This document shows, piece by piece, positions 123-38,200 of a stretch of 39,839 nucleotides of DNA. Below the pieces are notes generated by a model. The model worked only from the letters and a program-made list of their open reading frames with translations, ran no database searches and was not told where the DNA came from. This stretch comes from Naegleria gruberi. Taxonomy: Eukaryota. The stretch is taken from NCBI GenBank assembly GCA_000004985.1, contig GG738940.1; one strand, given 5' to 3'. How positions within the stretch are numbered: the stretch's first letter is position 1; each line of letters opens with the position of its first letter. Both the position numbers and the translations under genes were made by a program.

Positions 123-1610
123 ATGTCAACAACAACTACCAAAGAATCTTCTACCGAAACAGCAACAACAAATAATCAGAGTCATGATTTTGCTTATCTC
201 GATTCATCGGATCAAATATTTCAACTCTTAATGGCCAGAGAAAAAACAAAACAATTAGAATACGAAATTAAATTAAAAGAATTAAATTTACTACAAAATC
301 AATCACTATTAAAAAAACGATCATTTGATACATTTAATCAAATGATGAATGGACATGATGATCAAGATCAATATAATTCAAGTAATGTATTAAAAAAACA
401 AAAGAAGGCAAATTTATGTCAAGATGNNNNNNNNNNNNNNNNNNNNNNNNNNNNNNNNNNNNNNNNNNNNNNNNNNATCATCATCATCATCGATAATATT
501 GTTACTCAAGAAGAAGAATTAGCCTCTGGATCTGTTGAAAATAATTTAATTCCTTCCTTTGATTTATTACCCTCAACTCAACATTCTATTGTACCATCAC
601 TAAAAACCAATCCACTCACATCATCACCAACAACACCAAGTAATTCAGGTTTAGTTGGTTCTTCATCTGATAATAAGAGAACCTATCAATCTATGATATC
701 GGCACTTTCCTTAACACAACATCAAGAAGCAGCTGATAATGAAGAGGCATCATCACCAACATCACCAAATAGTACAAATAATCAGTCTTTATTGGATCAA
801 TCCACTTTGGAATCTGATAAGAAAAAGACAAGAAGAACAAAAACTAAGACATCTTCATCTTCTGCTTCAAATAAGAATTGTAGAGATGATTCTTCCCTGC
901 GATTATTAACACGTAAATTTATTCATTTAATTGCTGATGCAAAAGATGGTGTTTTGGATTTAAATCATGCAGCAGAAACACTAAGTGTTCAAAAACGTAG
1001 AATTTATGATATTACCAATGTATTAGAAGGAATAGGATTAATTGAAAAGAAATCTAAGAATAATATTCAATGGCTAGGTACAGGTATTGCAGTAAATGCA
1101 CCTGAAAATTGTGAGCAAGTTAAAATCATTCAAAATGAAATTGCTCAAATTGAATATCAAGAAAGACAAGTTGATCAATTAATTTATCATGTACAGGAAT
1201 CTCTTAGATGCTTAAACGAAAGTGAACAAAATAGAAGATTAGCATTCGTTACCTATGATGATGTTTTAGATATTTCAACATTGAAGGATAGAACTGTTAT
1301 TGCTATTAAAGCTCCTTCAGGTACAACTTTAACAGTTCCTGATCCTGATGAAGGTATGGAAATGGGAAAGAGAAGATATCAAATATTTTTGAAATCACCT
1401 GCTGAACCTATTGATGTTTATCTTGTGGATAGAGATTCTGATCAACAACAACAAGCTAATCATTCTGGAGATCCAATGTTGGAAAATGTTGTGACGACAC
1501 CTGTTAATCAAACATTTGAAGAAAAACAAGCTAATCAACAAACTAATAGTGGTGATGATTTTATGTTTGAAATGGAATCTGGTGAAGGTGTATCTGATTT
1601 GTTCTTATAA
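123..1610 (+). CDS. E2F-family transcription factor (winged-helix DNA-binding domain, dimerisation coiled coil, marked box, C-terminal pocket-protein-binding motif); contains the 50-N gap at 427..476
   Basis: The motif RRIYDITNVLEGIGLIEKKSKNNIQWLG is the canonical E2F DNA-binding signature. Downstream are a leucine-zipper/coiled-coil segment, a marked-box-like segment (KRRYQIFLKSPAEPIDVYLV) and a C-terminal EGVSDLF tail resembling the Rb-binding D-x-x-DLFD motif. The ATG sits after an A-rich leader. Confidence 0.8.
   Translation: MSTTTTKESSTETATTNNQSHDFAYLDSSDQIFQLLMAREKTKQLEYEIKLKELNLLQNQSLLKKRSFDTFNQMMNGHDDQDQYNSSNVLKKQKKANLCQDXXXXXXXXXXXXXXXXXIIIIIDNIVTQEEELASGSVENNLIPSFDLLPSTQHSIVPSLKTNPLTSSPTTPSNSGLVGSSSDNKRTYQSMISALSLTQHQEAADNEEASSPTSPNSTNNQSLLDQSTLESDKKKTRRTKTKTSSSSASNKNCRDDSSLRLLTRKFIHLIADAKDGVLDLNHAAETLSVQKRRIYDITNVLEGIGLIEKKSKNNIQWLGTGIAVNAPENCEQVKIIQNEIAQIEYQERQVDQLIYHVQESLRCLNESEQNRRLAFVTYDDVLDISTLKDRTVIAIKAPSGTTLTVPDPDEGMEMGKRRYQIFLKSPAEPIDVYLVDRDSDQQQQANHSGDPMLENVVTTPVNQTFEEKQANQQTNSGDDFMFEMESGEGVSDLFL
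427..476. other. assembly gap (50 N) inside the E2F CDS
   Basis: N run in the sequence; (ATC)n triplets abut it. Confidence 0.99.
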
Positions 1611-9275: not shown

Positions 9276-9589
9276 TTCAAACCAGATTAAAATTACTATT
9301 ATTTGATGATGATTATTACTACAAGGAATGATGAATTCTCACTCCAGTGATACAGACTTGACACAATAAGTTTTAAGAATTGCAATAAAGCCTTAGTAAA
9401 AATTTTTATATTGAGCAGCAACAACACAAAAACAATTAAAAGAAAAATTTTTTTTGGAGATAGTGAAGAGGAACAAGAACAACCGACACTAACGAAAAGT
9501 GTAGAGTAAGGCTAATACTGTCTGTTAAAGAAATCACGCTAGCCTCTTTTCATATTTGGAATATTCGTAAATGGTTCCAATTAAAAAAA

Positions 9590-11304
9590 ATGAATCAACA
9601 TCCCACTTCATTTCCACCTTCTCAACAAGAACAAGAATATCGGAATGGTGATGATCATAACCAAAAACAAATGTTGAGCACGAAGGCTTGTTTATCATGT
9701 AAAAATTCACATAAAAAGGTAAGAAGAAGAAATTAAAAGGAGATTGCAATCATTTGATGATCATCAAGTGCGATAAATTAATTCCTGCTTGTTCTAGATG
9801 TAAACAAAAAGGCTTTAAATGTGAATATAATTATGAAACTCCATCTTTAAAAAAGAAAAATGTTCGAATGAATCCTCTGCATAATAACAGTGCTAATGAA
9901 AATGTTAGACAAATTAAAAAGAATACAATTCAGACGTATGCTGAAATAATTTGTATTGGTTCTCCTGCATTTTCAATGGAACAAATGGAAGAGATGATAT
10001 TTATGGATACAAGTACACTTATTAATGAAAGAAAGGATATTTTGGCATATTTATTATCTGTTCAAGGATTGTGTGAGCAGAGGTTTGGATTTTTGGATTT
10101 TTCTGAAAAATCAATGCAAAGAGCAAGAGAAGTGCTGAAACACGTTTATGATCAAAACGAAAATCAATATGTGGCATGCACCTATAATCATATGGCATTC
10201 TATTTTGCAGGTACAATGGACAGGAAACGAGCTAGATTTTATTTGAGTTGTAGTGAAAACTTTATTTCGGAATTGGATATCTATGCAACCCAAAGAAATT
10301 TATCAAAACAAGAGGCTCTACAAGAAAGGCAACATTCTTTCGGATCTAATGTTGTAATGAGTGTGAGAGATTTTATGATATTTAAAAATGTTGTTGAAAC
10401 TCTTGCAAGTCAATCTAATCCTCTACCAGTTTCAGATATTCTAGAAAATACGTTTTATCAAATTGTTGGCATTGAAATTCCAGAAGAATTGAAAAAATAT
10501 GTAGATTTCAACTTGATCAATATTTATGATATTAATACATTGGAGGAGAGAATTAGAGGGTTTGAAGCTGTATTCAATATGATTCATGTTTCATTGAAAC
10601 AATCTGTTAGACCGAGTATGTGCCAAAAAATGCACGAATTTGTACAATTATTTATGCTCAATGGTGTGAGAATTTTAAAAATCTCAATAGCCAATATACC
10701 AATACCTCTCAGTAAGGAACACGAACCCTGGATTAAATTACTGGAACAAAGTGCTCTCGCGCTGACTGAAGCATCACAAACAGATTTTTTCTCTTTCATC
10801 TCACCTCTAATGATACCCTATTATCTTGCCAGTGCTAATGTAAATTTGGAGATTCTTAAATCAATTGTGGAGGGTAAACGACAAAATAATCAACCATTTC
10901 CAAGAGTTTACAGATTTGGAATTCATGAAATATTTCCAGAAGAAATTCTTACAGACACAGTTGACTATTTTCAAGTTGTCAAGAAGGATTTAAGAGCACT
11001 ACAGGTATTATCCAGTCGATACAGATACATTTCTGTCTATGTGGAAAACACTGAAAAATTATTAATACAAGCTGAAACTCAATTCGAGCATAACGTGGAA
11101 TTCACTTCTAATTCTGAAAGTAATTCATTTGATAGAACATTCTCCTACTACAAACAAATGAGACAATTCCTATTGAAAATTAATGATAAGATTGATAAAT
11201 TCCTACCTCAAGAAGAAGAACTTTTAGAATTTCTCAATGATAACGTTGATCCTTTCCTCTGTCAGGATATGGACATTTCAGAATTTAACAGTTATTTCCT
11301 GTAA
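9590..11304 (+). CDS. Zn(2)-Cys(6) binuclear-cluster (fungal-type) transcription factor. Exon 1 is 9590..9718, the intron is 9719..9768 (50 nt, GT..AG), and exon 2 is 9769..11304.
   Basis: The ATG at 9590 opens MNQHPTSFPPSQQEQEYRNGDDHNQKQMLSTKACLSCKNSHKK | CDKLIPACSRCKQKGFKC. After splicing, the cysteines follow C-x2-C-x6-C-x6-C-x2-C-x6-C, the canonical Zn2Cys6 spacing. The 9754 ORF in the track is exon 2 only. Confidence 0.7.
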
Positions 11305-11986: not shown

Positions 11987-13249
11987 TTAGTGGAACAACA
12001 TTTTAGAGATCAAATCAGGACCTAATTCTTCATAATCAGCACGTCTAATCCAACGATCTTGGAATGAAGACAAACTTGAAAGAATTGAACCACCAATCCA
12101 AACTGAATATTTACGTTCAGGAGGAGCAATAATTCGTAATCTAACAGCACCACCTACCATACGTGTCATTTCACGTGTTAAACGTTCTTGAATACCCTTA
12201 ATAAGAGTATTACCACCAGAGAGAATGACATTCTTAAACATATTCTTTCTGATATCCATATTACAATGTTGAATTGAGGTATTTAACAATTCGTGAATAC
12301 CCAATTCTTCTGAACCAATCATATTTGGTTGGAACAAAATTTCTGCAGCTTGGAAACGTTCACAATCAATATTAATAAATGTACCATCTGGTAATTGGAA
12401 TTGATTTCTGAATTCATTCTTCTTTGATTCTTGGAATAATTTCAAAGTGTGATCATAATTCAAAGCAACATAACATGAAGCTTCCTTAACATCACGAACG
12501 AAATCTAATGAAGCACTATTTTGTGTAAAATCATATCCAGAATGTTGTAACATTAATTTTGTTAAATGATTAGTAATATCACAACCTGCCAATTCACTTT
12601 TTAACATGGCATATGTTTGAGGATAACCTTCAAACACTGGAACAACGTGTGTCGATCCATCACCTGAATCTAAAACAATACCATCTAAATCACCAGTTGC
12701 ATATATTGAGAGCAATCCTTGAATTGCAAAGAATAATGAATGTGATTGGAATTTTTCAAATAATAATTGAATATACTGTTGACGATGAGTGACTGATGTC
12801 AATGGTTGTTCTGTCAATAAAATTGGGTGATCTTTTGGATTAACACGTAAATGGAAATGATAAATATGTTCTAATAACAATTCAATATCATCCCAATTTT
12901 GAACACCTTTACCTCCACGATTAATTGGATGAGATAATTCACAAATACCCTTTCTTTGATGGGCTTCCAATCCAACAAAATATGATTTTGCTTCATTCAT
13001 TTTCTCTCTTGCTCCAAATAATTTACGAGTGTCGACATGACTTTTTGGTTTTCCAATAATTGTTGGGAAAACTGCTTTTGGAAATTGTTCTCCTGCCAAT
13101 CCTGCTTTAACAAAACTACTTCCCAAATCACAAACAATGGCTCCTTGATGGTCACGAATTAAATTCATGGTATTGATGTGTCCGGTATGAGCAACAATGG
13201 TATCATCATTGATAGCTTGTGCTCTCTTATTATATGGTATATAGGACAT
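11987..13249 (-). CDS. actin-related protein (Arp1/Arp2-like; actin fold)
   Basis: IVCDLGSSFVKAGLAGEQFPKAVFPTIIGKPK corresponds to the actin N-terminal phosphate-1 region. The sequence also has LLTEQPL, IVLDSGDGSTHVVPVFEGY, SVWIGGSILSSLSSFQDRWI and a GPDLISKMLFH tail. I estimate roughly 40% identity to actin by eye, and there is an N-terminal extension. Confidence 0.75.
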   Translation of the reverse strand: MSYIPYNKRAQAINDDTIVAHTGHINTMNLIRDHQGAIVCDLGSSFVKAGLAGEQFPKAVFPTIIGKPKSHVDTRKLFGAREKMNEAKSYFVGLEAHQRKGICELSHPINRGGKGVQNWDDIELLLEHIYHFHLRVNPKDHPILLTEQPLTSVTHRQQYIQLLFEKFQSHSLFFAIQGLLSIYATGDLDGIVLDSGDGSTHVVPVFEGYPQTYAMLKSELAGCDITNHLTKLMLQHSGYDFTQNSASLDFVRDVKEASCYVALNYDHTLKLFQESKKNEFRNQFQLPDGTFINIDCERFQAAEILFQPNMIGSEELGIHELLNTSIQHCNMDIRKNMFKNVILSGGNTLIKGIQERLTREMTRMVGGAVRLRIIAPPERKYSVWIGGSILSSLSSFQDRWIRRADYEELGPDLISKMLFH

Positions 13250-15183: not shown

Positions 15184-18100
15184 ATGGAAAATATTGCCTT
15201 CTTTATTCAAAATGTTCAAAAAATTGGATTAAAATGTGAATGGACAATTAGAGCATTACACAAAAATTCTGATCTTAATTCTGTTTTGAAAACTGTAATT
15301 GATTTATCAAAACATTTTGAAACCAAGTTTAGAAATTCAAATGCAGTCCAATCTAAAAACAGTAGTAGTGAAGAGGAATTATTTACTGGACCTTTCTTGA
15401 AATTACCAATTTTATTTAAACAACCATCAAATGCAACTATTGAAGTGAATGCTTCTGTACCAATGTGGAAAAGTGCATTAAGAAAGACAACCAGTGGTGT
15501 GAAATTAACAAGTGAAACTGAAACAACAACAACTCCAGCAACGACAACGACTGAGGAAAAAACATCAACTCCTACTGCCACAACTCCAATAGAGAAATCT
15601 TCACCAACAACTTTACAAAATACAGTTTCAACTCCTTCTACAGTAGAAGTTAAACCAGAAACTAAAACAACTGCATCAAATTCTAATGCAAGTTCTACTG
15701 CCACTAGTTCAAAAAGTACTGCCACTGCAAGTAAGCAGCAACCAACACAAGAAGTTGTGGAAAAGAAAGTTGAACCAACAAACAAGGATGTTAAAACAAC
15801 ATCCGCCACTGTTGCTACCAAGGAAGTGACCACAAAAACACCAGTAACTACTGAGGTCAATCCAACAAGTGATAAAAAGACAGCAACAGGAACTTCTGCA
15901 AATAATGGCAGTAGCTCAAGTTCGACATCTAATTCATCTACTGGAAATTCATCACCAAGAGAAAAGATTCCTGACAAGACTTCTCCAACAACTGCTGCTA
16001 TTCCTTCTAAGGCAATTTTAAAGCCAACTAGCAAGACAAGCAATAATACTCCTTCTACCCCTCAATCAAGTGGACAAGTGCCTGGGGAATGGACTAAATT
16101 GAAGCCAACAAATTCTGGAAATAACCTCAAAGAAGCTGCCAACTCTGAAAAGCAACCTGAATTTTTAACAAATCGATTAAGACCTGTCTCTGTAAAGATG
16201 AACGCATCACCACTATCTGAAGCACTCAAGAATGAAAATTCAACAAAGGAAACCCCAAGTACAACTGCACCTGTGGTCGAAAAGCAACCAGTGACTAAGG
16301 TTGAACCAGTTAAAGATGTCAAGACTACAACTCCTGTTACTACTAAGGAAGTTACCACAACACCTGTCAAGGAAGAAAAGCTAATTCCTCAAAAAACAAC
16401 TCCTCCAAAAGAGGTTACACCAAGTAAGGATGTTAAAAAAGATCCAGTTTCAACTCCTCAAGAAGCATCTCCTAATACTGGAGTTTCATATTTGGCTAAT
16501 TTGAAATCTACACATGCTAAGAATGTCTCAACTCCAACATCAAATGAAGTGCCAAATTTCAAGGCCCAACTGAAACCAGTTGCCAAACCAGCAAATGAAC
16601 CTTCAAATAATACACCAACATCAGTAAGTGCAACAACAGGAGGCGGTATTTTCCCAGTTCAATTGAAAAAAACAAACATTTCACTTGCATCTTTGGAAAA
16701 TAAGGAAACAACCTCTCCTTCAGGTTCCAACACAAAAACCAATTCAGGATTCGGCTCTCCAAGAAGTGATTCTGGATCAAGTACTACAAATACCAGTCAA
16801 TATGTGGCTAATGAATCTACTGCAGATTCATTGTCTGAAGATGGATCAAGTGTAATGGACTTTGATGAAGATGAAGAAGACATGAGTAATGATCAAGGAA
16901 TTTCTTATAATATTAAGAAATTGAAAGATCAAGTCACTAATCAACATCCTTCTGCTGAATATTTGTACTCACTTTACAAACTTATTGAGAAGAAATCAGT
17001 GAAATGGTGTACAAAATTCTCAGATCAAGAAGGAGGTGCCAAATATCTTGGCCAAATCATCACAACCATGAATGAAAAGAAATATAGAAGTATGAATGAA
17101 AAAACAGTTCAAGAAAGAAGTTTGAAATGTTGTCACGCTCTGATTGAAAAGGGTATTTTTGATCCATTCCTCAAGAATCCAAGTTCTGTTTCTGCGATTA
17201 CTTTCATGATTGATTCAAAAGATGGTATCAAGATTAGAATTATGGCTTTGGAAATCTTGTCATTGATTTGTACTTATAATGAACAAGGTTTTTGGACAGT
17301 TCTGGAAGGGTTAAACAGATACAAAACAGAAAAGAAGGAACCAAGAAGATTCCGTGACTTGATTGAATTCCTTAAAGTAGAAAAGGATGAAAAGTTGAAA
17401 ACTTTCTGTTTAATGTTATTGAACTCACTTATTAACACTCCTCAAGATTCGTTTATTAGAATTTTGATCAGAAATGAATTGAAACAACTTGGATTGGAAA
17501 CAGTTGTTGATAAATTGAGTAATGATCTGCAACATGATAGAATTAGAGATGAAAATTTGAAAGAACAAATTAAAGTTTTCGAAGAAGAAATGATGATTGG
17601 TTTAATTGAAAAAGAACAAGCAGGTGTTTCAGATGATTCTGAGAACACAACTGAAAATCTCTTTAAGAATTTCAAATCCGAGACTGATCCATTGAAAATT
17701 GTCAAATTACTCATCTTGAGATTGGGTGCCACAACTGGTACCTCACATTTGGTATCTATTTTACAAAATTTACTTTCCTACTCGATGAGTTCAAGTATGG
17801 ATCCAAAGTTTGAACCACAATTATTAACAAGTTGGAAGAATTTGGACAATACCATTAAATCAATGGTTCAAGCTTGTCAAATGAAAGGAGATAGTGGTAT
17901 TATTGAAGATATTGCCAAGAAGGAAAAGAATGCCAGTTTTGAGAAACAAAAACAAACTTCCAAGATTTCAAACCTCAACTTGACTATTGAAAAAACCAAC
18001 AAGGAAATTGACGAGTTGAAGAAACAAGTTGAAAATTGGAAGGTCAAATTCAATGAATCAACAAAGAATATTTCTATTCTTTCTAACCAATTGAATAATC

Positions 18101-20352
18101 TCCAAGCCAATAAGGACAACAATGCTCAACCAAATGATGTTAAAGTTGAACCAGTTCAACAAATTATTCCAATTGATACACAAATTTTCACAAAAGAAAT
18201 TGATGAACTGAAATTACTCGTTAAAGAAAAAGAGGATTCCGTAGAGAATGTAAATAAGGAGAATGACAAGCTCAAGGATCAGTTGAAAGAATTGTTAATG
18301 GAATTGGAAGAACACAGAAGAATGTCCTTCAAACAATCCTTACAAACTACTACAGGAACAGTCAGATCTAATTCTAGCAATACTTCGAGCATCTCTGAGG
18401 TCAGCAATCAGAATAGTGCTGTCATTGATCTAGAACCTTCTTTCACAACCGGTGCTGCTGGTTCTGGATTTGTACCTCCACCTCCAGGAGCTAGTGGTAG
18501 TGGATTTGTACCTCCACCTCCAACTGGAGCCTCTTCTGGTGGTTCCAGTCCTAATATTCCTCAAGTTCCAAACATGACTGGAGCTGGTTTACCTCCTCCA
18601 CCTCCTTCTGGTATTGTATCAATGTCAAAGAAGAATCCACTACCAGAATTATCAAAGAGAGCTCCAAAGAGTGCAGTTAAAAACTTTTATGGTGTTGCCA
18701 TCAATAGACATAAGGTTTCACAAACATGTTGGGTTAAAGGTGGTATTGCAGCTGAGTCTAAGGAAGTTCAAATTGATGAAGATGAATTGGAAGACTTGTT
18801 CTCAAATGCTCCAAAAAAGAACAACAAAGACGAGGAAAAGAAGCGTAAGGAATTGATATCATTTGTTGAACCACAAAAAGGAAGCGCTCTCTCAATTTTA
18901 TTGGGATATATTCGATTGGATTATTCTGAGATTAAGAGAGCCATTTTAGAAATGGATGAGGAAGTTTTGACTGCTCAAGTTGTTGATACTCTAAAGGATA
19001 AGATGGCAACTGCTGATGAATTGTCACAAATTGAGGCATACAATGGCGATGCAGATTTATTATCACCTGTAGATAAGTTTTATTTGGCCCTCAAGGATGT
19101 TCCAAGATTGGAAGGAAGATTATTCTGTTGGGCTTCAGATTTAAATTCCAAACAGAAGTATCAGAAGTTTTATCTGATTTGGAAACAGTTTTAACTGCTT
19201 CCACTCAAGTAGTTCAAAGTAGTAGATTTAAGAGATTGTTAGCTGTTATTTTGGCTATTGCTAACTTTTTGAATGCAAACTCTTCATCAAAGAAGAACGC
19301 CTATGGGTTCACATTGAACAGTTTGTCCAAGTTGCAAGACACCAAGACATCAGATAACAAGTCATCTCTCTTACAATATATCAGTTCATATTGTGAAAAA
19401 TCATTCCCTGATCTATTGAATATTAAGGAAGATTTTTCATCATTGGAGGATGCTACTCGTGTTTCCCTCGTTGAATCAGATAATGAATACAGAAAGTTAA
19501 AACAAGGATTTGAAACTATGGAAAGAGAATTACAGAATCCACAATGGGAATCCACAACTTTCAAGAATAACATGAGTGAATTCATGGAAAGTGCCACAAG
19601 ATTTTTAGATGATATTGATTCAATCTTATCAAAGATTGATGAGAAGTTAAAACAAATTGCTGAAGATTTTGCTGAGGACGAAAAGACAGTTTGTAAGAAT
19701 CCAAATGAACTCTTCCAAACCCTCAACAATTTCCTCAATAACTTTAGAAATGGTTATGAAGAACTTGTGAAACAGAGAGAAGCTGACGAAAAGAAGAAAC
19801 TCAAACAAAAAATCATGGAAGAAAAGAAGAAACAATCGGCTGCCTTCTTTTCCAATCATACCAACATGAGAAGTGAGNNNNNNNNNNNNNNNNNNNNNNN
19901 NNNNNNNNNNNNNNNNNNNNNNNNNNNGAAGCAACGATGCTCTCAAATCATCAACCATTACCAATGTACAGCAACAACCAGCAACTACGAGTCCACAAGA
20001 TTCAATTATTCCATCTTCACCACCTCCTCCACCTCCTGTTTCCTCTTCTTTAGAATCATCATCATCATCTACAAGTGAAATTGAATCATTCAATCCTCCA
20101 ACAATCAATACAGAACCAGTGTCATCGACAATTAACACAGAAACGTTATCAACAAGTACTCCAATTGAAGCTGAAACATCTGTAACAACACCATCATCAC
20201 AAGAAACCTCCTCTTCAGATGTAATGTCAGAGGCTGAACATTTAGAACTGTTGACCAAGATGAGAGACAGAAAGAAGAGTATTATGAGTGGATCTGCATT
20301 CAGAGAAAGAAGAATGACAAGATTTGCTATGGAAAGCAATGAACAACAATAA
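15184..20352 (+). CDS. diaphanous-related formin with an S/T-rich N-terminus, GBD/FH3, coiled coil, FH1 poly-Pro, FH2 and C-terminal DAD. The frame changes at ~19129 (GGG run), and the 50-N gap at 19878..19927 also changes the frame.
   Basis: The armadillo-like GBD/FH3 region reads KWCTKFSDQEGGAKYLGQIITTM...ALEILSLICTYNEQGFW. The FH1 region has GFVPPPPGASGSGFVPPPPTG...GLPPPPPSG. The FH2 region has KNFYGVAINRHKVSQTCWVK...LEGRLFCW, and continues in the -1 frame as GFRFKFQTEVSEV...NANSSSKKNAYGFTLNSLSKLQDTKTSDNKSSLL. After the gap, the adjacent frame carries a DAD-like tail: MSEAEHLELLTKMRDRKKSIMSGSAFRERRMTR (compare mDia ...MDSLLEAL..SGAAFRRKR). Confidence 0.8.
19878..19927. other. assembly gap (50 N) inside the formin 3' region
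   Basis: N run. Confidence 0.99.
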
Positions 20353-27522: not shown

Positions 27523-29592
27523 TTACTGATCTAATAAAAATTCATCTAAGAATTCTTCTAATCTAGTGTGAAGGTCATTGTGAGGAGAGTCCAACATTGG
27601 TGGAGCTGAACTCACAAAGGATGTATCAATTTCATGAAGGAATTTCTCAAGTTCTAGACAAACTTCTGAAGGTTGAGCTGAAGCTGCCTTATATTTGCTT
27701 CGCATAACATTGAATGCTCTGAGATCTTTCCTCAGTAATGTAAGGTAATCAGTATTGTTATGTATCAGCGATCCAGTATGTCTGAGAGTTTTGGCTTTTT
27801 CTAAATGGACTTTTGCAGCTGCATTTAAAAAGGCGATAAGCTCCAAAGGAAAAACAGGGAACCATGGATTTTCAGTGAGTGCTGTAATTTGAATAGCACT
27901 TTGGTCTATCATTCCAGAAATTACAACAGAATCCCGTTGTGGTGATTTGGATAGAATTGAAATTCTAGCTCCATCTAGAATAAATTGATAAACTAGTTCT
28001 ATAATTTCCAAATAAAATTTGGAGCTTTCTGATGCAGAAATATTAGATCGTTCTATTGCCTTTGATTGATTGAGAATCATTTCTACCAAGCTCCAAATTT
28101 CAAAACAATTTTCAGCTGTAATTTCCGTATTGAGAATATTAATCCACTCAGCAGGGAATGGCTTTCTATGTAAAAATTCAAAAATGGCTGGCAGCCTCTT
28201 TAGAATATCTTCCACTGTAAGATCTTTCAGTTCCCTATTATCTATAAATATTATTCTGTCAAAATAAAATATCCAACCCTGTAAATTTTGTTGATATTCA
28301 GTCATAGAATCAATATCACAATCCTGTGGGAATAGTTTCTTCTCGAAAAAGGTCAAAATTTGCAAGTAGAATTTACAATTTTCAAATCTTCCTGACCAAA
28401 GTTCATATACAATAAGCTTACAATATGCCCCAGCAACCATAAAACTAGAAAAATTATCAAACACTCTAGACAGGCACTTTTTGGCCTTTTCAGCTGATTT
28501 TTCTGCTTGTTCATGAAGTCCGTATTGACATTCACAGAGTGCCTTGATAGAAAAATAGATTGAAGGCATTTCAAAATCGACTAGAGTATTGAGATCTTGA
28601 TTCTCATCAAATTTTCCAGCAAAATTTTCCAGCTCCTGCCTTGACAATAGTGGATAACCTCCAGCTACAACATCATAATAGAAATCAATCATGTTAGGTT
28701 TAGAAAGAGAAGATGTGAGAGCTGTTGATTCACTTGGTGAAGTTTTGTTAGTGGTAGTATTAGTCTTTGGTTTTGAATATGGTTCATATTGAGTTTCAGT
28801 TCTCTTCTTTTGTACAATTGATGGTGGTTGAATGTTTGGTTTCTTTTTCAAATTCCTCTTTGATTCTCTATAGTGACAATTAATTCCTCGTTGTTGGCAT
28901 GAATAACAAGATGGTTTTCTCTTATCACATTTTCTATTTGAATTATTAATTGAAAAAAGATTAGAAGAATACACGTACCTATGTTGTGATCTACAATGGT
29001 CGCATGCAATAGGAGAAAACTCTTCTGTTGACTGCTCCACAACTGTTGTACTATTAGATTTTGAATTATTACTACTATCACTACTATTTGGACTAGTATT
29101 AGAGAATATTATTGTTTCGGAATTTGTTTTTCCCAACAAAATATCACTATTTGAATCAACTATTGCCGTATTAGCTCCTCCTACTACTGTATGCATCAAA
29201 TTATTATTACTACTATTGTCAAGACTTGGATTAATTGCAGCAAAATTAAATAATTCTAAAAAGGTGCTTGGCATCATGCCTCCTCCTCCCTGCATCATCA
29301 TCATCATGTTATGTAATTGAATATCCATCTCTGAATTACTATTTTGTGTCGAAGACGAACCAACACCATGATTAAAGGCTATTGCTGGTCCCGATTCGGC
29401 TTGAAAATATGAAGAAGGAGCAGTTGAATTCATTGCCGAAGAAGAAGAAGACAGAGGCGAACCAAACGGAAACAATGAAAATCCATGTTGTTCTTGCTGT
29501 TGTTGTTGAGTATTCTGCTGCTGATACATGAAACTATTAAAATTATTATTAAAATTATTTGATGAATTCGGAGAGTTGAAATCTTGGTTCAT
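27523..29592 (-). CDS. Zn(2)-Cys(6) binuclear-cluster transcription factor, Q/N-rich; paralog of the 9590..11304 gene. It contains an in-frame 45-nt GT..AG intron at 28978..28934.
   Basis: The cluster reads ...IACDHCRSQHR[YVYSSNLFSINNSNR]KCDKRKPSCYSCQQRGINC. The bracketed 15 codons are gtacgtg...aatag. Removing them restores the C-x2-C-x6-C-x6-C-x2-C-x6-C spacing. Poly-Q and Asn-rich tracts flank the cluster. Confidence 0.65.
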   Translation of the reverse strand: MNQDFNSPNSSNNFNNNFNSFMYQQQNTQQQQQEQHGFSLFPFGSPLSSSSSAMNSTAPSSYFQAESGPAIAFNHGVGSSSTQNSNSEMDIQLHNMMMMMQGGGGMMPSTFLELFNFAAINPSLDNSSNNNLMHTVVGGANTAIVDSNSDILLGKTNSETIIFSNTSPNSSDSSNNSKSNSTTVVEQSTEEFSPIACDHCRSQHRYVYSSNLFSINNSNRKCDKRKPSCYSCQQRGINCHYRESKRNLKKKPNIQPPSIVQKKRTETQYEPYSKPKTNTTTNKTSPSESTALTSSLSKPNMIDFYYDVVAGGYPLLSRQELENFAGKFDENQDLNTLVDFEMPSIYFSIKALCECQYGLHEQAEKSAEKAKKCLSRVFDNFSSFMVAGAYCKLIVYELWSGRFENCKFYLQILTFFEKKLFPQDCDIDSMTEYQQNLQGWIFYFDRIIFIDNRELKDLTVEDILKRLPAIFEFLHRKPFPAEWINILNTEITAENCFEIWSLVEMILNQSKAIERSNISASESSKFYLEIIELVYQFILDGARISILSKSPQRDSVVISGMIDQSAIQITALTENPWFPVFPLELIAFLNAAAKVHLEKAKTLRHTGSLIHNNTDYLTLLRKDLRAFNVMRSKYKAASAQPSEVCLELEKFLHEIDTSFVSSAPPMLDSPHNDLHTRLEEFLDEFLLDQ

Positions 29593-29813
29593 TTTTTTAT
29601 TTTTGAATTTTGTTTCTATTTTGGCGGTAACCGAAACTTTTGATTCGAATTTGAGGATCTAGTTGGCTTTGGAGCTCCGTGTATGAGTTTCTTATTCTCA
29701 TGAGTTGAAATTAACAGAGTGGGTGGTGGATGGTATTTACAAGATTGGGCTGAGTTGCTATTGTTACAGGTAAAGTGCTCTTGTTGATTTTCATCAATTC
29801 CTTAGAGGGATTC

Positions 29814-31549
29814 TTAGACAACAACTTCGTGATGGTGATCGTCATCCATTGACGAAGATGCAGAACTAGTTCCATTCTGAGAAGGAGATAATTCTGATTC
29901 AATCTTTTCAGTTTGGTTGGTTGGCAATTGCAGTAAGAGCTTGTTGGATTCCATTGGACTAGTTTCAGTTGTTGGAGTGATGGTTGATGGAGATTCAATG
30001 TGAGAGCTGCCGGCAACGTGGAGCATCAGTTCCTTCTCAACCATAGAGACACCACCGGTATGACCTGTGGAACGTTGTGAAATAGAGCCATTATTGAAAC
30101 CGTGTGATTTTTGAGCATTTGTCTTGGAAATTTCAATTTCCTTAAAGGCAACTTCAGTGTTAACAAACATTGGATAAAAGAGAAAGAGAATAATGACAGC
30201 AAATATCAAAACTCCCAAACAATTGAAGAAATACCACAATGGCTATTCAATTTGTTAAATTCAAATGAGAAACCAAGTAACAACATACCTTAATGATATC
30301 AATTTCAGTAGCACCACTAGCAATACCAGCAGCAACCAATTGGAAGAGAATGCAGGCAACCAAGGCCATCAATAAACCAAAAGTAACCTTGAATGGTGAT
30401 TGAATACGTTGTTCAATCTTTCTATCAATGGATGTTCTTTCAACAGGTGCATGTGCTGATGGTAAATTAGTGGACTTTTCACTTTCAATACTTCCACGAG
30501 GAGTCATATGTCCTGTTGAGAGAGTATTTGTGGTGGTCTTGTGATATTTCTGTGAAGTTGCCATCACTGCACGTGTTGTCTTCTTGATGGTTGTAATAAC
30601 TAAAACACCTGAAATGACTGTTACAATGCCATCAAAAAGTAACATGACCAAAATGACTAAGAAACAACCAATGTAAACACCCATAGTTGGTGTTTTACCA
30701 ACCATGTCTGATTTTTGAAGGAAGAAGAAGGCAGAAACTAGACAAATCATCAATTCACACAAAATTGTAAAGACAAGTGTTGAAATATTGAGTGTCCATT
30801 GAATGATGAATAATGTTTTCTTTGAAATGGCACCCATCAATTGTGCAGTTGTCCAACTGTTTAATCATTATATTCCAATAGTTCATCATAATCATATTTA
30901 ATACACAATCAATATATTTACACACAAAAATGTAAAAAATTCACAAACTTTCAATTAAAACTTACAAAATCTTTTGGAAAAAGAACAAGACAACAAATAA
31001 AAAGGCAAAATCAGAAAACATGAAAAAGATTGTCAGTGCACCCATTAAATTCAATGCAATAAAGAAGGAACTTGACATTTGCTGACCAGTTTCACTCACA
31101 ACTTTTGCATAAATATGCATAGCATCATAAACTATACGAATCACCAAATTTGTAGATTGAATGGCAACGAAAGTAATTGCCAAGATGAACATAATCTTTG
31201 GATTTCTCTTGATGTGAATGTTTCGTATTTTGTATAAAAAGATACCCAATGCTACATAATAAATAGCAAAACATATTAAATAGAAAACAGAATTTGCCAT
31301 TGACAGTGAATTTACCCAAACAGGTAGATAATGTGAAGAAGTAACATTGGCGTATCCATCAACAAATGGTGGATTGACAATTTGAAACGGTGTTACAGTA
31401 TTCGAATCATCAATACTATTCGAATCTTGAAAATCAGCAAACATTGCATTAGTGATGAAGGCTGAAGATTGAGCGAATTTACTTTGAGTGAGTGGTATGA
31501 AGATCTTGTCCATTACCCACGGCAACATTGTCAGAAGTGCAGAAGACAT
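29814..31549 (-). CDS. 7-TM receptor-like membrane protein in three exons: 31549..30965, 30856..30289 and 30242..29814. The introns are 30964..30857 (108 nt) and 30288..30243 (46 nt).
   Basis: The three track ORFs (30962..31549, 30247..30840, 29814..30239) join through GTAAGT..AG and GTATG..AG introns, giving ...FFFQKIF|WTTAQLMGAISKK... and ...ATEIDIIK|PLWYFFNC.... In total there are seven hydrophobic helices, a long Thr-rich third intracellular loop and an S/T-rich acidic C-terminus. There is no cleavable signal peptide. The family is unassigned. Confidence 0.5.
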
Positions 31550-35254: not shown

Positions 35255-38200
35255 ATGGGTCTCAAGAAAGGTGCAAACAAGACTAAAACCTCCAAAACCA
35301 ATATTAGAGCAAAGGTGGTTGAATCCATTCAACGAACTCCAAAAATTACCATTGAACAGAACCGAGCTGTTAATATTCCTCGGTATCATCAAATTATATT
35401 TTCTGATCTGATCAGTAAAGAGAACTCATTGGGTGAAGCACACTGTGAGAAACCAACCACTCCATTCCTTTCTGACTCAACCGACACTGAATGTCATAAC
35501 TTTAGAGTTATGCTTGACATTATTGGTCAAGAAATCAAGTTGAGAAACGTTCAAAACCTGGAAGATGTACTGACCAGATTACGTGAACCATACAAAAAGC
35601 CAAAACAACATACGTACGAAAATCTTCCATGGGTTCTCAAAGTAGATGCTGTAACTTGGATTCAAATCTTTCTCAATTGTTGTGATGATTTTACAAGAAC
35701 AACAGTAATAAGACATATTTTACAATGCTCATCCATGCCTGTTCCTTTCATTCAAAGAGCAAATTTTGAACAAGATGGTAAATTGTCAGCTTTCAATCTA
35801 GATTACATTTTAAACGACAACGAATTACCGGTTCTTGAACAAAAGATGCTTCTCTGCTTGGACATGGGTGATAATGGTACAATAATGAAGCAATTAGTAA
35901 GAGGTTACAAGCAAATTGAATCCACGTCCATGGAATTGAGAGATGGTAATGTTGGACTATATGTCAATAGTAATTGTAAATATCCAATTGTTGCTCATAT
36001 CAACGATGAATTCAAAGCTGTTCCGTCAACCTTGAAGTCTATGCTTTCAATTGTTGATGCAGTGCTATTCATATTTGATCAGGATGGTTCACCTGAAGTT
36101 ATGGAACTCATTATAGATGAAATGAAACAGAGTAATTTGCCATACTACATGATATCTAAAGTGTCAAAGAGAACATTGGATGATTCAGATGATGCAGTGT
36201 TCGAAGAGGAGGATTATCATCCAACTCAAGGTTCCAATGATATTATTACCTGGATTAATACCATCGTCAAAACTCCTAAAAAGAGTACCTTCCAATATCC
36301 TCCCGATGTAGAAATTATCAAGAGCTATCCTATCTTTGAAAATGATCCATTAAGAGAGTTTTATTCCATTCTATTCGAGACTTTAAAAAGTGAGAAAGAT
36401 ACTGAGGGTGCAGATTTCAAAAAGAAATATTTTCCAATTACAACACATGCAAATGCAATTCAAGAAATGCAAGATCAAGTGTTTGCAAACAAGCAACTTC
36501 CATACTCAACGAAGAAAGAAGAAGAAGATTTCATTGCCCTTGGAAAGGTTACCTCTGAAAAGTATTTGACTCAAAATCCTTCCAAATTCATGATTAAACT
36601 TTTGAAGGCATTGAAATTGGCTGTAGAGAATAATTTGTTTCAACAATTATGGAATGTTTTTACATTTCATATTCATATTTTTGCCTATCCAAAAGTTCAA
36701 AACATTAAGCAAGAAGTACTTGGTTTAATTGATCAAATTGAAGAGCTTGAAAATTCGAATCAGCAACCTAATGAACCTCAAGCTAAGGACTTGGAAAAGA
36801 AAAAGTCAGAGTTGGAACAAGAAAAGAAAAAATTAGAGAGAAAAATGCAATCAGAATCGATTGGTGTTGAACATTTCTGGAGAGAAATTTTCCATATTTG
36901 GGTACAAATGGATAAGAAAACTATTGAGAATGTCTCAAAGAACAATGTAATGTCAGCAATACAATGTGCTATGATGACAGGATTCCCCATTGAAATTATT
37001 GATGGCGACTCCAACTCAATTAATGAACATTTCTTAGAAGAATTCTTTACAAAGCTGCCAAGCGATATTGCAAAAAGTAGAGTTCTATTTGTTTCAATTC
37101 TTGGCCATCAAAGTTCTTACAAAAGTACTGTTATGAACTCACTATTTAATAGTCAGTTTTCAATGGGTCAAGGAAAATGTACAAGAGGTGTTCAAATTTC
37201 CTTACACAAGTGTTCGCACACATCAAAATATGATTATATTGTTGCTTGTGATGTTGAAGGTTTAGAATCTGTTGAAATGGAGATTAACAAGAACTCTTCT
37301 TTTAATTCATTCTTTTATAATCATAGATTGGCTTTAGTTTCTATTTACTTGTCGCATTTAGTTCTTATTTCAAGTAAGGGTGAAGTTGACGCAACATTAA
37401 CAGGTACATTAGAAGTCTGTATTTATGCCATGGCCATGTTGAAGAAGACATTATCTCATCCTTCATTCTGTGTGGTTTCAAACAATTGTACTGACACTAA
37501 ACAAGATGCATTACTTCACAATGACAAAATCAAACAGTTATTAGTGAGAGGAGTCTCTAAATTCAATGAGCACTTTAATGAAGACGTCCAATTATCAGAT
37601 CTGGTTCCATCTCGTGAGTGCATGTATTTGACACCTGCTTTTGAACCAGAAACTAAAAACTTTACCAGAAGTTATAGTTACAGAGTACGAAAGTTGTTGG
37701 ACTATATTTTGACAATTCCAACACATCAAGATTTCTCAAACTTTGGTTCTTGGGTAACCAATCTATTGAGTGCGTGGAAATCTTTGAGAGAACACGATTT
37801 CGCTCTCTGTTATAAAGACTTGACAGAGTTAGAAAACTTCCAACAACTGAAAAACATAGGCAAAGAGTATGAGTCTTCTGTGGCACTTGAATTGGAACAA
37901 TTGGTATTGAAATATCGTACGGAAAACGTTGATTACTTGGAAGTTATTGCCAAAATTGAAGACCTTGCCTTTCAAGTATTTGAAAACTATAAGGAAAAAA
38001 TCAAAGAAGACAAATTCATGTTATGGAAAGACAAATTTACAATCAATTTTGATAATTTCAAGAATGATTACATAACAAAAAAGAAAGCAGAGATGAAAGT
38101 TGTTCAGGCATTTAAAAATACTACCAATCAAGTTGGTGACGCTATTCAGCAAGTTAACAGAAAAATCAAAGAGGAATATCAGCTATTGAAACAAATGTCA

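What the first reader, a model, noticed from the sequence alone, without database searches (positions are those of the whole stretch)
9590..11304. Two Zn2Cys6 transcription-factor paralogs 16 kb apart share an intron position inside the zinc-cluster coding region
Both genes (9590..11304 on plus, 27523..29592 on minus) place a short phase-0 intron between the x6 spacer after the second cysteine and the third cysteine of the Zn2Cys6 motif (KNSHKK|C versus RSQHR|KC). In the second gene the intron is exactly 45 nt and stays in frame, so a naive ORF reads straight through it and stretches the spacer to 21 residues. A shared intron position argues that the two are old paralogs rather than convergent. 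It also gives a useful marker for annotating the rest of this family in the genome. The first gene's true start (ATG 9590, exon 1) is missed by the ORF track.
Basis: partly seen in the sequence, partly recalled or inferred. Interest (0 to 1): 0.5.

Follow-up and report, generated by a model that had tools for sequence, protein, structure and literature searches.

The report
Near, not shared, introns in Naegleria Zn2Cys6 genes
Two related zinc-cluster transcription-factor genes of the amoeba Naegleria gruberi each carry a short intron inside the DNA-binding-domain code, but the introns sit 4 bases apart in different phases, so this is an ordinary gene-structure and annotation finding with one curious twist: intron positions cluster in this spot across the family.

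Summary
The window is a complete 39.8-kb scaffold of Naegleria gruberi, a heterolobosean amoeba and not a fungus. Both genes and both GT..AG introns are at the stated coordinates. Splicing restores a canonical CX2CX6CX6CX2CX6C Zn2Cys6 domain in each gene (Pfam 34 and 37 bits). The proteins are full-length paralogs (22% identity over 504 aa, E=3e-24).

The central claim fails at nucleotide level. The gene 1 intron is phase 0, directly before the Cys3 codon. The gene 2 intron is phase 2, 4 nt upstream of Cys3, inside the Arg codon.

Relatives do not show a stable marker:
- Gene 1's orthologs in N. fowleri and N. lovaniensis have no intron.
- Gene 2's N. lovaniensis ortholog has its intron before Cys2.
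- Willaertia relatives have it 4 nt after the start of Cys3.
- Five positions (-21, -4, -3, 0, +4) fall within 26 nt across the family, far more clustered than chance.

On annotation, the public gene 2 model already splices the 45-nt intron. The public gene 1 model starts inside its intron and lacks Cys1 and Cys2. The family has at least 86 clusters, and every member I could name comes from Naegleria or Willaertia. It pairs the zinc cluster with a C-terminal domain whose predicted fold best matches yeast Cep3.

Overall: partly confirmed, low to moderate interest.

The parts
9590..9718 (+). Gene 1 exon 1 (43 codons, ends in phase 0). It encodes the N-terminus and Cys1-x2-Cys2-KNSHKK of the zinc cluster. 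It is absent from the public model XP_002668867.1.
   Evidence: Orthologs P0002 and P0003 carry the same KAC..C..HK[KR]C segment uninterrupted. A second strain shows one synonymous change here, against about 10 changes in the 170 nt upstream.
9719..9768 (+). Gene 1 intron, 50 nt, GTAAGA...ATCAAG, phase 0, immediately before the Cys3 codon (position 0).
   Evidence: Unspliced translation hits a stop after 5 codons. The same position, phase and length, and the same CATCAAG 3' end, occur in the N. lovaniensis paralog P0007.
9769..11304 (+). Gene 1 exon 2: Cys3 to Cys6 of the zinc cluster plus the roughly 490-aa C-terminal all-helical domain. The stop codon is at 11302-11304.
   Evidence: AF2 model. 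Cep3-like fold matches.
9689..9822 (+). Gene 1 Zn2Cys6 coding region (Cys1 to Cys6), interrupted by the intron.
   Evidence: Pfam PF00172, E=2.5e-8, 34.3 bits, residues 32-64 of the spliced protein. Motif scan.
9757..9759 (+). False start codon of the public gene 1 model (MIIK|CDK...). It lies inside the intron.
   Evidence: P0001 sequence compared with the window sequence.
28979..29592 (-). Gene 2 exon 1 (614 nt, ends in phase 2). It encodes a low-complexity N-terminus, Cys1-x2-Cys2-RSQH and the first two bases (AG) of the Arg codon.
   Evidence: The same start is used by the strain-2 ORF P0008.
28934..28978 (-). Gene 2 intron, 45 nt, GTACGT...AAATAG, phase 2, 4 nt upstream of the Cys3 codon (position -4). 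It is open in frame, so an ORF reads through it.
   Evidence: It is already spliced out in the public model XP_002668878.1. All relatives have a 6-residue Cys2-Cys3 spacer.
27523..28933 (-). Gene 2 exon 2: third base of the Arg codon, Lys, Cys3 to Cys6, and the C-terminal domain homologous to that of gene 1. The stop codon is at 27523-27525.
28876..29004 (-). Gene 2 Zn2Cys6 coding region (Cys1 to Cys6), interrupted by the intron.
   Evidence: Pfam PF00172, E=2.6e-9, 37.5 bits, residues 196-232 of the spliced protein. Motif scan.

Best explanation
Shown:
- The two genes are paralogous members of a large family of Gal4-type transcription factors. Every member I could name is from Naegleria or Willaertia.
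- Each protein has an N-terminal Zn2Cys6 binuclear-cluster DNA-binding domain followed by a roughly 450-aa all-helical domain.
- Each gene carries one short canonical GT..AG intron that must be removed to give the 6-residue Cys2-Cys3 spacer needed for the zinc cluster.
- The two introns form a near-intron pair, not a shared position. Gene 1's intron is at position 0, phase 0, directly before Cys3. Gene 2's is at position -4, phase 2.
- Across the family the intron in this 26-nt stretch is unstable. It is absent in four genes and occupies -21, -4, -3, 0 or +4 in others.

Inferred:
- The proteins bind DNA through the zinc cluster and are regulated or dimerise through the C-terminal domain, by analogy with fungal Gal4-like factors and Cep3.
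- The cluster of positions most likely (about 50%) descends from an old intron in this region that was moved by a few bases several times and lost in some lineages. Unrelated random insertions are less likely.

The confidence of 0.85 applies to the shown part (real introns, paralogs, positions near but different), not to the inferred origin of the cluster.
For: Organism, from the names of the matching public proteins.

Anatomy, phase and domain restoration.

Paralogy: BLASTP E=3e-24 over 504 aa. The trees place gene 1 and gene 2 in separate, well-supported clades (100% and 96%; 99% and 93-99%).

Intron maps read from genomic DNA of relatives:
- P0002 and P0003 (gene 1 orthologs), P0011 and P0012 have no intron.
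- P0007 is at position 0, phase 0.
- P0004, P0005 and P0006 are at +4, phase 1.
- P0009 (gene 2 ortholog) is at -21, phase 0.

Intron positions inferred from ORFs that read into the intron:
- -4 in N. fowleri P0073/P0161 and in environmental P0062.
- +4 in P0044, P0071 and P0109.
- -3 in N. fowleri P0168 compared with P0165 and P0166.

Clustering: leaving out the two window genes, 5 of 7 introns (3 of 5 distinct positions) fall in the 26-nt window. Under uniform placement P=8e-9 (2e-5 for distinct positions).

Family size and range: 86 representatives at E<=1e-30. All named members are Naegleria or Willaertia.

Against: - No transcript data were available, so splicing is inferred from homology and splice signals only.
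- The AF2 model is of moderate quality (pLDDT 67.5, pTM 0.50). Foldseek E-values to Cep3 are weak (4e-3 to 0.1). No Pfam family other than Zn_clus gave a credible match.
- Common descent of the introns is not demonstrated. Intron interiors show no similarity. Intron-less genes sit between intron-bearing ones in the tree. The 4-nt distance is not a multiple of three, so three criteria for sliding in PMC2891723 fail for gene 1 versus gene 2.
- Deep nodes of the family tree are weakly supported (21-56%).
- Six of the intron positions are inferred from protein read-through rather than read from DNA.
Confidence: 0.85

Rival explanations
1. One reading: the two introns occupy the identical ancestral position (same codon boundary, phase 0), inherited unchanged since the paralogs duplicated.
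For: Both introns lie between Cys2 and Cys3, and both are short (45 and 50 nt).
Against: Exon 1 of gene 2 is 614 nt, which gives phase 2. The only GT and AG that restore the frame give the junction AG|A, 4 nt from gene 1's junction. The zinc-cluster alignment has no gaps, so an alignment shift cannot explain the offset. Orthologs of both genes lack these positions.
Confidence: 0.02
2. The introns arose by independent insertions, or by loss followed by re-gain, at a local hot spot in the zinc-cluster code, and do not descend from one ancestral intron.
For: Intron-less members occur in both clades. The 4-nt distance is not a multiple of three. No similarity exists between intron interiors. The gene 2 orthologs differ by 17 nt. 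The -4 and +4 positions each appear in clades that are far apart on the tree.
Against: Five positions inside 26 nt of genes of roughly 2 kb need a very strong hot spot. The exon junctions are not strong AG|GY proto-splice sites. The spacings of 1 and 3 nt (-4, -3, 0) look like small shifts.
Confidence: 0.35
3. The 45-nt segment of gene 2 is coding, so the 21-residue spacer is real. Alternatively, gene 1 truly starts at ATG 9757, as in the public model, and makes a protein with half a zinc cluster.
For: The 45-nt segment is open in frame in two strains. An ATG exists at 9757.
Against: The unspliced gene 2 product falls below the Pfam cut-off (20.5 against 37.5 bits). All 56 family members with an intact domain have exactly 6 residues between Cys2 and Cys3. 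Open 45-nt frames are expected about one time in nine. Gene 1's exon 1 encodes the missing AC..C..HKK segment exactly in register with a GT donor and matches the orthologs.
Confidence: 0.03

Closest known systems
Fungal Gal4-type Zn2Cys6 zinc-cluster transcription factors (Pfam PF00172; the Zn2C6 plus middle-homology-domain 'CeGAL' architecture, e.g. Gal4, Hap1, Put3, Cep3)
   Same: The cysteine spacing is the same, CX2CX6CX6CX2CX6C. Pfam and PDB sequence matches go to Gal4, Lac9, Hap1, Put3 and Cep3 DNA-binding domains. The domain is N-terminal and is followed by a large helical domain whose predicted fold is closest to the Cep3 middle homology domain. As in fungi, introns near or in the DNA-binding domain cause truncated gene models (PMC10141177).
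   Different: The host is a heterolobosean amoeba. The C-terminal domain has no sequence-level match to Fungal_trans or any other Pfam family. All named members of the family are from Naegleria or Willaertia. No target genes or DNA sites are known.
Zinc-cluster transcription factors of Amoebozoa (22 in Acanthamoeba castellanii, 3 in Dictyostelium; PMC4053784)
   Same: These are non-fungal amoebae with lineage-specific expansions of the 'fungal-type' zinc cluster.
   Different: They belong to a different eukaryotic supergroup. I did not test how the two sets of genes are related.
Near intron pairs and intron sliding (Lehmann et al. 2010, PMC2891723; Poverennaya et al. 2020, PMC7730772)
   Same: Homologous genes carry introns less than 32 nt apart that cannot have coexisted. 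Spacings of 1 and 3 nt occur in the family (-4, -3, 0).
   Different: The gene 1 to gene 2 distance is 4 nt, not a multiple of three. Intron-less intermediates exist, and intron similarity is absent, so the published sliding criteria are not met. Sliding is itself regarded as very rare and often an annotation artefact.

Membership tests
Zn2Cys6 binuclear cluster DNA-binding domain (PF00172, Gal4 type) | Six cysteines spaced CX2CX6CX5-12CX2CX6-8C | tested here: met
   After splicing both genes read CX2CX6CX6CX2CX6C. Unspliced gene 2 has X21 in place of X6.
Zn2Cys6 binuclear cluster DNA-binding domain (PF00172, Gal4 type) | Profile score above Pfam's gathering cut-off (21 bits) | tested here: met
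   34.3 bits for gene 1 and 37.5 bits for gene 2. All 12 aligned relatives also hit.
Zn2Cys6 binuclear cluster DNA-binding domain (PF00172, Gal4 type) | Binds two zinc ions and recognises DNA (typically CGG triplets) as a dimer | not testable with these tools
   This needs biochemistry. The only support here is sequence similarity to solved Gal4, Hap1 and Put3 domains.
Fungal middle homology domain (Fungal_trans PF04082 / CeGAL architecture) | Sequence-profile match to the MHD family | tested here: not met
   No MHD family (Fungal_trans) was reported at E<=5 in any of the 12 members; the only other matches were weak ones (E 0.04 to 5) in one or two members each. PDB profile hits are confined to the DNA-binding domain.
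Fungal middle homology domain (Fungal_trans PF04082 / CeGAL architecture) | Cep3-like all-helical fold following the zinc cluster | tested here: inconclusive
   [not shown]
Shared (orthologous) intron position | Same nucleotide position and same phase in a gap-free codon alignment | tested here: not met
   Gene 1 is at position 0, phase 0. Gene 2 is at position -4, phase 2. The zinc-cluster alignment has no gaps.
Shared (orthologous) intron position | Conservation of the position in orthologs | tested here: not met
   Gene 1's orthologs P0002 and P0003 have no intron. Gene 2's ortholog P0009 has its intron at -21. Position 0 is shared only with the N. lovaniensis paralog P0007.
Near intron pair (positions less than 32 nt apart in homologous genes; PMC2891723) | Two different intron positions less than 32 nt apart in homologs | tested here: met
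   The distance is 4 nt between gene 1 and gene 2. Five positions lie within 26 nt in the family.
Intron sliding (criteria of PMC2891723) | No intron-less intermediates, distance a multiple of three, and sequence similarity between the introns | tested here: not met
   Intron-less members occur in both clades. The distance is 4 nt. Intron interiors are no more alike than shuffled sequences. Other pairs in the family (-4/-3 and -3/0) were not tested at DNA level.
Canonical U2-type spliceosomal intron | GT..AG boundaries, and removal restores the reading frame and a conserved protein | tested here: met
   GTAAGA..CAAG in gene 1 and GTACGT..ATAG in gene 2. Lengths of 45-50 nt match other family introns of 38-63 nt.
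Canonical U2-type spliceosomal intron | Spliced junction observed in transcripts | not testable with these tools
   No RNA data were reachable. The exact spliced proteins are not in the 15-billion-protein collection.

The most novel reading that the evidence does not exclude
The zinc-cluster code of this Naegleria/Willaertia transcription-factor family holds a series of intron positions (-21, -4, -3, 0, +4) that all derive from one ancestral intron. The intron would have moved repeatedly over 1 to 4 nt without changing the protein, for example through tandem splice-site shifts or through reverse splicing of the excised intron next to its old junction followed by cDNA recombination. If so, the family would be an unusually rich natural series for studying intron migration, a process whose existence is still disputed.
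Probability: 0.35. Interest if true: 0.55.

Novelty: new member of a known kind. Interest (0 to 1): 0.3.

Why it matters
Practical value:
- The public N. gruberi model of gene 1 (XP_002668867.1) lacks the first two zinc ligands.
- The public gene 2 model (XP_002668878.1) is probably fused to an unrelated membrane-protein gene.
- At least two further N. gruberi models and one N. fowleri model are damaged at the same spot.
- Annotators should therefore look for a short intron anywhere from Cys2 to just after Cys3, not at one fixed codon.

Biological value:
- "Fungal-type" Zn2Cys6 factors, probably with a Cep3-like second domain, form a large expansion in Naegleria and Willaertia. This bears on claims that the architecture is fungus-specific.
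- The tight cluster of near-but-different intron positions is a possible test case for intron migration versus hot-spot gain.

Tried and rejected
- Two scans of JGI metagenome contigs for more family loci found no confirmed relatives.
- The third word-indexed homolog search, run with the family alignment, added nothing useful.
- The N. gruberi paralog P0010 has no DNA on record, so its intron state is unknown.
- The afdb50 fold library was unavailable.
- Literature searches for Naegleria together with Zn2Cys6 or Zn_clus returned nothing. One query had invalid syntax.
- I considered alternative splice boundaries that would put both introns at one position. No other GT/AG pair keeps the frame and the cysteine spacing.
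- I tested whether the introns resemble each other, as introner-like or slid copies would. None of the 21 pairwise comparisons stood out from shuffled controls. The lowest p was 0.024 (P0005 versus P0004), which is unremarkable for 21 tests.
- I considered whether the stop-free 45-nt length is meaningful. It is expected by chance about 11% of the time.
- Strain comparison (98.5% identity) is too close to separate exon from intron by substitution pattern.

Full report
**What the window is.** A protein search with spliced gene 1 returns a 100% match to "predicted protein [Naegleria gruberi]" on a contig of exactly 39,839 bp. The window is therefore a whole N. gruberi scaffold. N. gruberi is a heterolobosean amoeba, not a fungus. 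GC content is 32%. Neighbouring ORFs encode ordinary eukaryotic proteins: E2F, a PB1 protein, actin, a TLC-domain protein, a formin, a kinase and a URGCP-like GTPase.

**Checking the observation.** The coordinates are right.
- Gene 1 (plus strand) has exon 1 at 9590-9718 (129 nt), a 50-nt intron at 9719-9768 (GTAAGA...ATCAAG) and exon 2 at 9769-11304.
- Without splicing, gene 1 hits a stop after five codons. With splicing, the product is 554 aa and reads ...KACLSCKNSHKK|CDKLIPACSRCKQKGFKCEY.
- Gene 2 (minus strand) has exon 1 at 29592-28979, a 45-nt intron at 28978-28934 (GTACGT...AAATAG) and exon 2 at 28933-27523.
- Gene 2's intron is open in frame, so the mechanical ORF 27523-29592 (689 aa) reads through it and yields a 21-residue Cys2-Cys3 spacer. 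Spliced, the product is 674 aa and reads ACDHCRSQHRKCDKRKPSCYSCQQRGINCHY.
- Pfam Zn_clus scores are 34.3 bits for spliced gene 1 and 37.5 bits for spliced gene 2. Unspliced gene 2 scores only 20.5 bits, below the 21-bit cut-off.
- No other Zn2Cys6 motif is present in the window.
- An open 45-nt intron is not remarkable at this composition (about 0.11 by chance).

Exon 1 of gene 2 is 614 nt, so the intron is phase 2. The junction is CAT AG|gtacgt...aatag|A AAA TGT, inside the Arg codon and 4 nt upstream of Cys3. Gene 1's junction is phase 0, AAG|gtaag...caag|TGC, directly before Cys3. The zinc-cluster alignment of the family has no gaps, so the 4-nt offset is real. No alternative GT/AG pair keeps the frame and the cysteine spacing. 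The two introns are a near pair, not a shared position.

**Are the genes paralogs?** Yes, and this does not depend on the introns. The proteins align over 504 residues at 22% identity (E=3e-24). In neighbour-joining trees they fall into separate, well-supported clades.

**Public annotation.**
- The public model of gene 2 (XP_002668878.1, 1168 aa) already removes the 45-nt intron.
- That model also joins the gene to an upstream multi-pass membrane-protein gene through a 320-nt "intron" (29853-29534). This intron has the odd donor GTCAAT and deletes the transcription factor's own ATG.
- The N. lovaniensis ortholog and the second-strain ORFs are not fused. The fusion is therefore probably an artefact.
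- The public model of gene 1 (XP_002668867.1, 515 aa) starts at ATG 9757 inside the intron (MIIK|CDK...) and lacks Cys1 and Cys2.
- A second N. gruberi-like strain, found in an ENA metagenome at 98.5% identity, keeps the ATG at 9590, has one synonymous change in exon 1 and has an identical intron.

**Comparative test of the "shared position" idea.** I fetched genomic DNA for nine relatives and mapped their introns. Positions are counted in nucleotides from the first base of the Cys3 codon.

| Gene | Organism | Relation | Position / phase | Intron length |
|---|---|---|---|---|
| gene 1 | N. gruberi | this window | 0 / phase 0 | 50 nt |
| P0002 | N. fowleri | gene 1 ortholog | no intron | - |
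| P0003 | N. lovaniensis | gene 1 ortholog | no intron | - |
| P0007 | N. lovaniensis | paralog in gene 1's clade | 0 / phase 0 | 50 nt |
| P0005 | Willaertia magna | relative in gene 1's clade | +4 / phase 1 | 52 nt |
| P0006 | Willaertia magna | relative in gene 1's clade | +4 / phase 1 | 54 nt |
| P0004 | environmental | relative in gene 1's clade | +4 / phase 1 | 38 nt |
| gene 2 | N. gruberi | this window | -4 / phase 2 | 45 nt |
| P0009 | N. lovaniensis | gene 2 ortholog | -21 / phase 0, before Cys2 | 60 nt |
| P0011 | environmental | relative in gene 2's clade | no intron | - |
| P0012 | N. lovaniensis | relative in gene 2's clade | no intron | - |

P0007's intron shares the same CATCAAG 3' end as gene 1's.

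ORF-style gene calls that read into an intron give further inferred positions.
- -4 in an N. fowleri gene of a third clade. The ORF call reads TINTN|RKCDR where the spliced model reads GHRKCDR. Only a phase-2 AG|A junction lets the read-through codon still encode Arg.
- -4 in the environmental sequence P0062.
- +4 in three ENA sequences, P0044, P0071 and P0109, which read x|DKK.PSC with Cys3 missing.
- -3, phase 0, in another N. fowleri gene. Its exon 1 ORF ends ...RKMHK|VS, and GTAAGT translates as Val-Ser. The spliced models read RKMHKQCDKK.

The position is therefore not conserved even between orthologs, and no single codon can serve as a family marker.

**The clustering is not chance.** Leaving out the two window genes, 5 of 7 mapped introns (3 of 5 distinct positions) lie within the 26-nt stretch from Cys2 to just past Cys3, in coding sequences of about 2 kb. 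Under uniform placement P=8e-9 for introns and 2e-5 for distinct positions. This is not simply a 5' bias. The zinc cluster lies about 100 nt into gene 1-type coding sequences but about 600 nt into gene 2-type ones.

**Origin of the cluster.** By the definition of Lehmann et al. (PMC2891723) these are near intron pairs. Three of their criteria for sliding are not met for gene 1 versus gene 2:
- intron-less members exist in both clades;
- the distance is 4 nt, not a multiple of three;
- intron interiors are no more similar than shuffled sequences.

The exon junctions are also not strong AG|GY proto-splice sites, which argues against tandem duplication. On the other hand, the series -4, -3, 0 has steps of 1 and 3 nt, the sizes classically attributed to sliding. 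Random gains would not cluster like this. Sliding is considered very rare and is often an annotation artefact (PMC7730772). I judge descent from one old intron with small relocations and losses to be about as likely as repeated loss and re-gain at a hot spot. Neither is shown.

**What the genes are and how they probably work.**
- A full HMMER scan of 1.84 billion representative proteins finds 86 family representatives at E<=1e-30 and 255 at E<=1e-10.
- All 17 representatives that carry a source name are from N. gruberi, N. fowleri, N. lovaniensis or Willaertia magna.
- UniProt already labels many of them "Zn(2)-C6 fungal-type domain-containing protein".
- The DNA-binding domain matches solved Gal4, Lac9, Hap1, Put3, Leu3, Ppr1 and Cep3 domains.
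- The remaining 450 or so residues have no credible Pfam hit.
- By inference, the proteins are Gal4-like DNA-binding regulators with a Cep3-like second domain. Membership of the fungal middle-homology-domain family is not established.
- Zinc-cluster factors outside fungi are already known in Amoebozoa (PMC4053784). In fungi, loss of the DNA-binding domain from gene models through mispredicted introns is well documented (PMC10141177).

**Verdict.**
It is wrong on phase and on "same position".
- The paralogy conclusion is right, but for other reasons.
- The annotation point is useful. Gene 1's model is truncated, and other family models are damaged at the same place: XP_002670244.1, XP_002675517.1 and N. 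fowleri FDP41_010721.
- The unexpected part is the cluster of at least five near-adjacent intron positions in one family. It remains unexplained and needs transcript data and a full codon-level survey.

Noticed in passing
window 29534-29853 (minus strand) and 29814-31549: The public model XP_002668878.1 (1168 aa) fuses an upstream multi-pass membrane-protein gene to Zn2Cys6 gene 2. It does so through a 320-nt 'intron' with the unusual donor GTCAAT, which removes the transcription factor's own ATG at 29592. The N. lovaniensis ortholog and the second-strain ORFs are unfused, so the model is probably chimeric.
   Followed up: partly
other N. gruberi and N. fowleri scaffolds (proteins P0027, P0039, P0026): Further public family models are damaged inside the zinc cluster. 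XP_002670244.1 starts MGK|CSRC, and XP_002675517.1 starts MPSCDRC. N. fowleri FDP41_010721 skips Cys3 (MHKKLPSC), whereas its alternative models read MHKQCDKKLPSC.
   Followed up: partly
L003 1501-3687 (N. lovaniensis ortholog of gene 2): The ortholog of gene 2 carries a 60-nt phase-0 intron directly before Cys2. That is 17 nt upstream of the N. gruberi position, so orthologs differ in intron position.
   Followed up: yes
[not shown]
   Followed up: partly
window 9571-9573: An out-of-frame upstream ATG lies 19 nt before gene 1's start codon in this scaffold. It is absent in the second strain, where AAATGG is AAAAAGG.
   Followed up: no
L008 and L011 (ENA sample ERZ929261, run ERR1078381): A public 'metagenome' assembly contains contigs 98.5% identical to this scaffold, which indicates a second N. 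gruberi-like strain. Its gene 2 intron is also 45 nt and stop-free, with one base change.
   Followed up: partly
window 123-1610, 11987-13249, 15184-19194, 35255-39664: The neighbouring ORFs encode an E2F-family factor, an actin, a formin (its FH2 domain is cut at the ORF end, which suggests another intron) and a URGCP-like GTPase. None is functionally linked to the finding.
   Followed up: no
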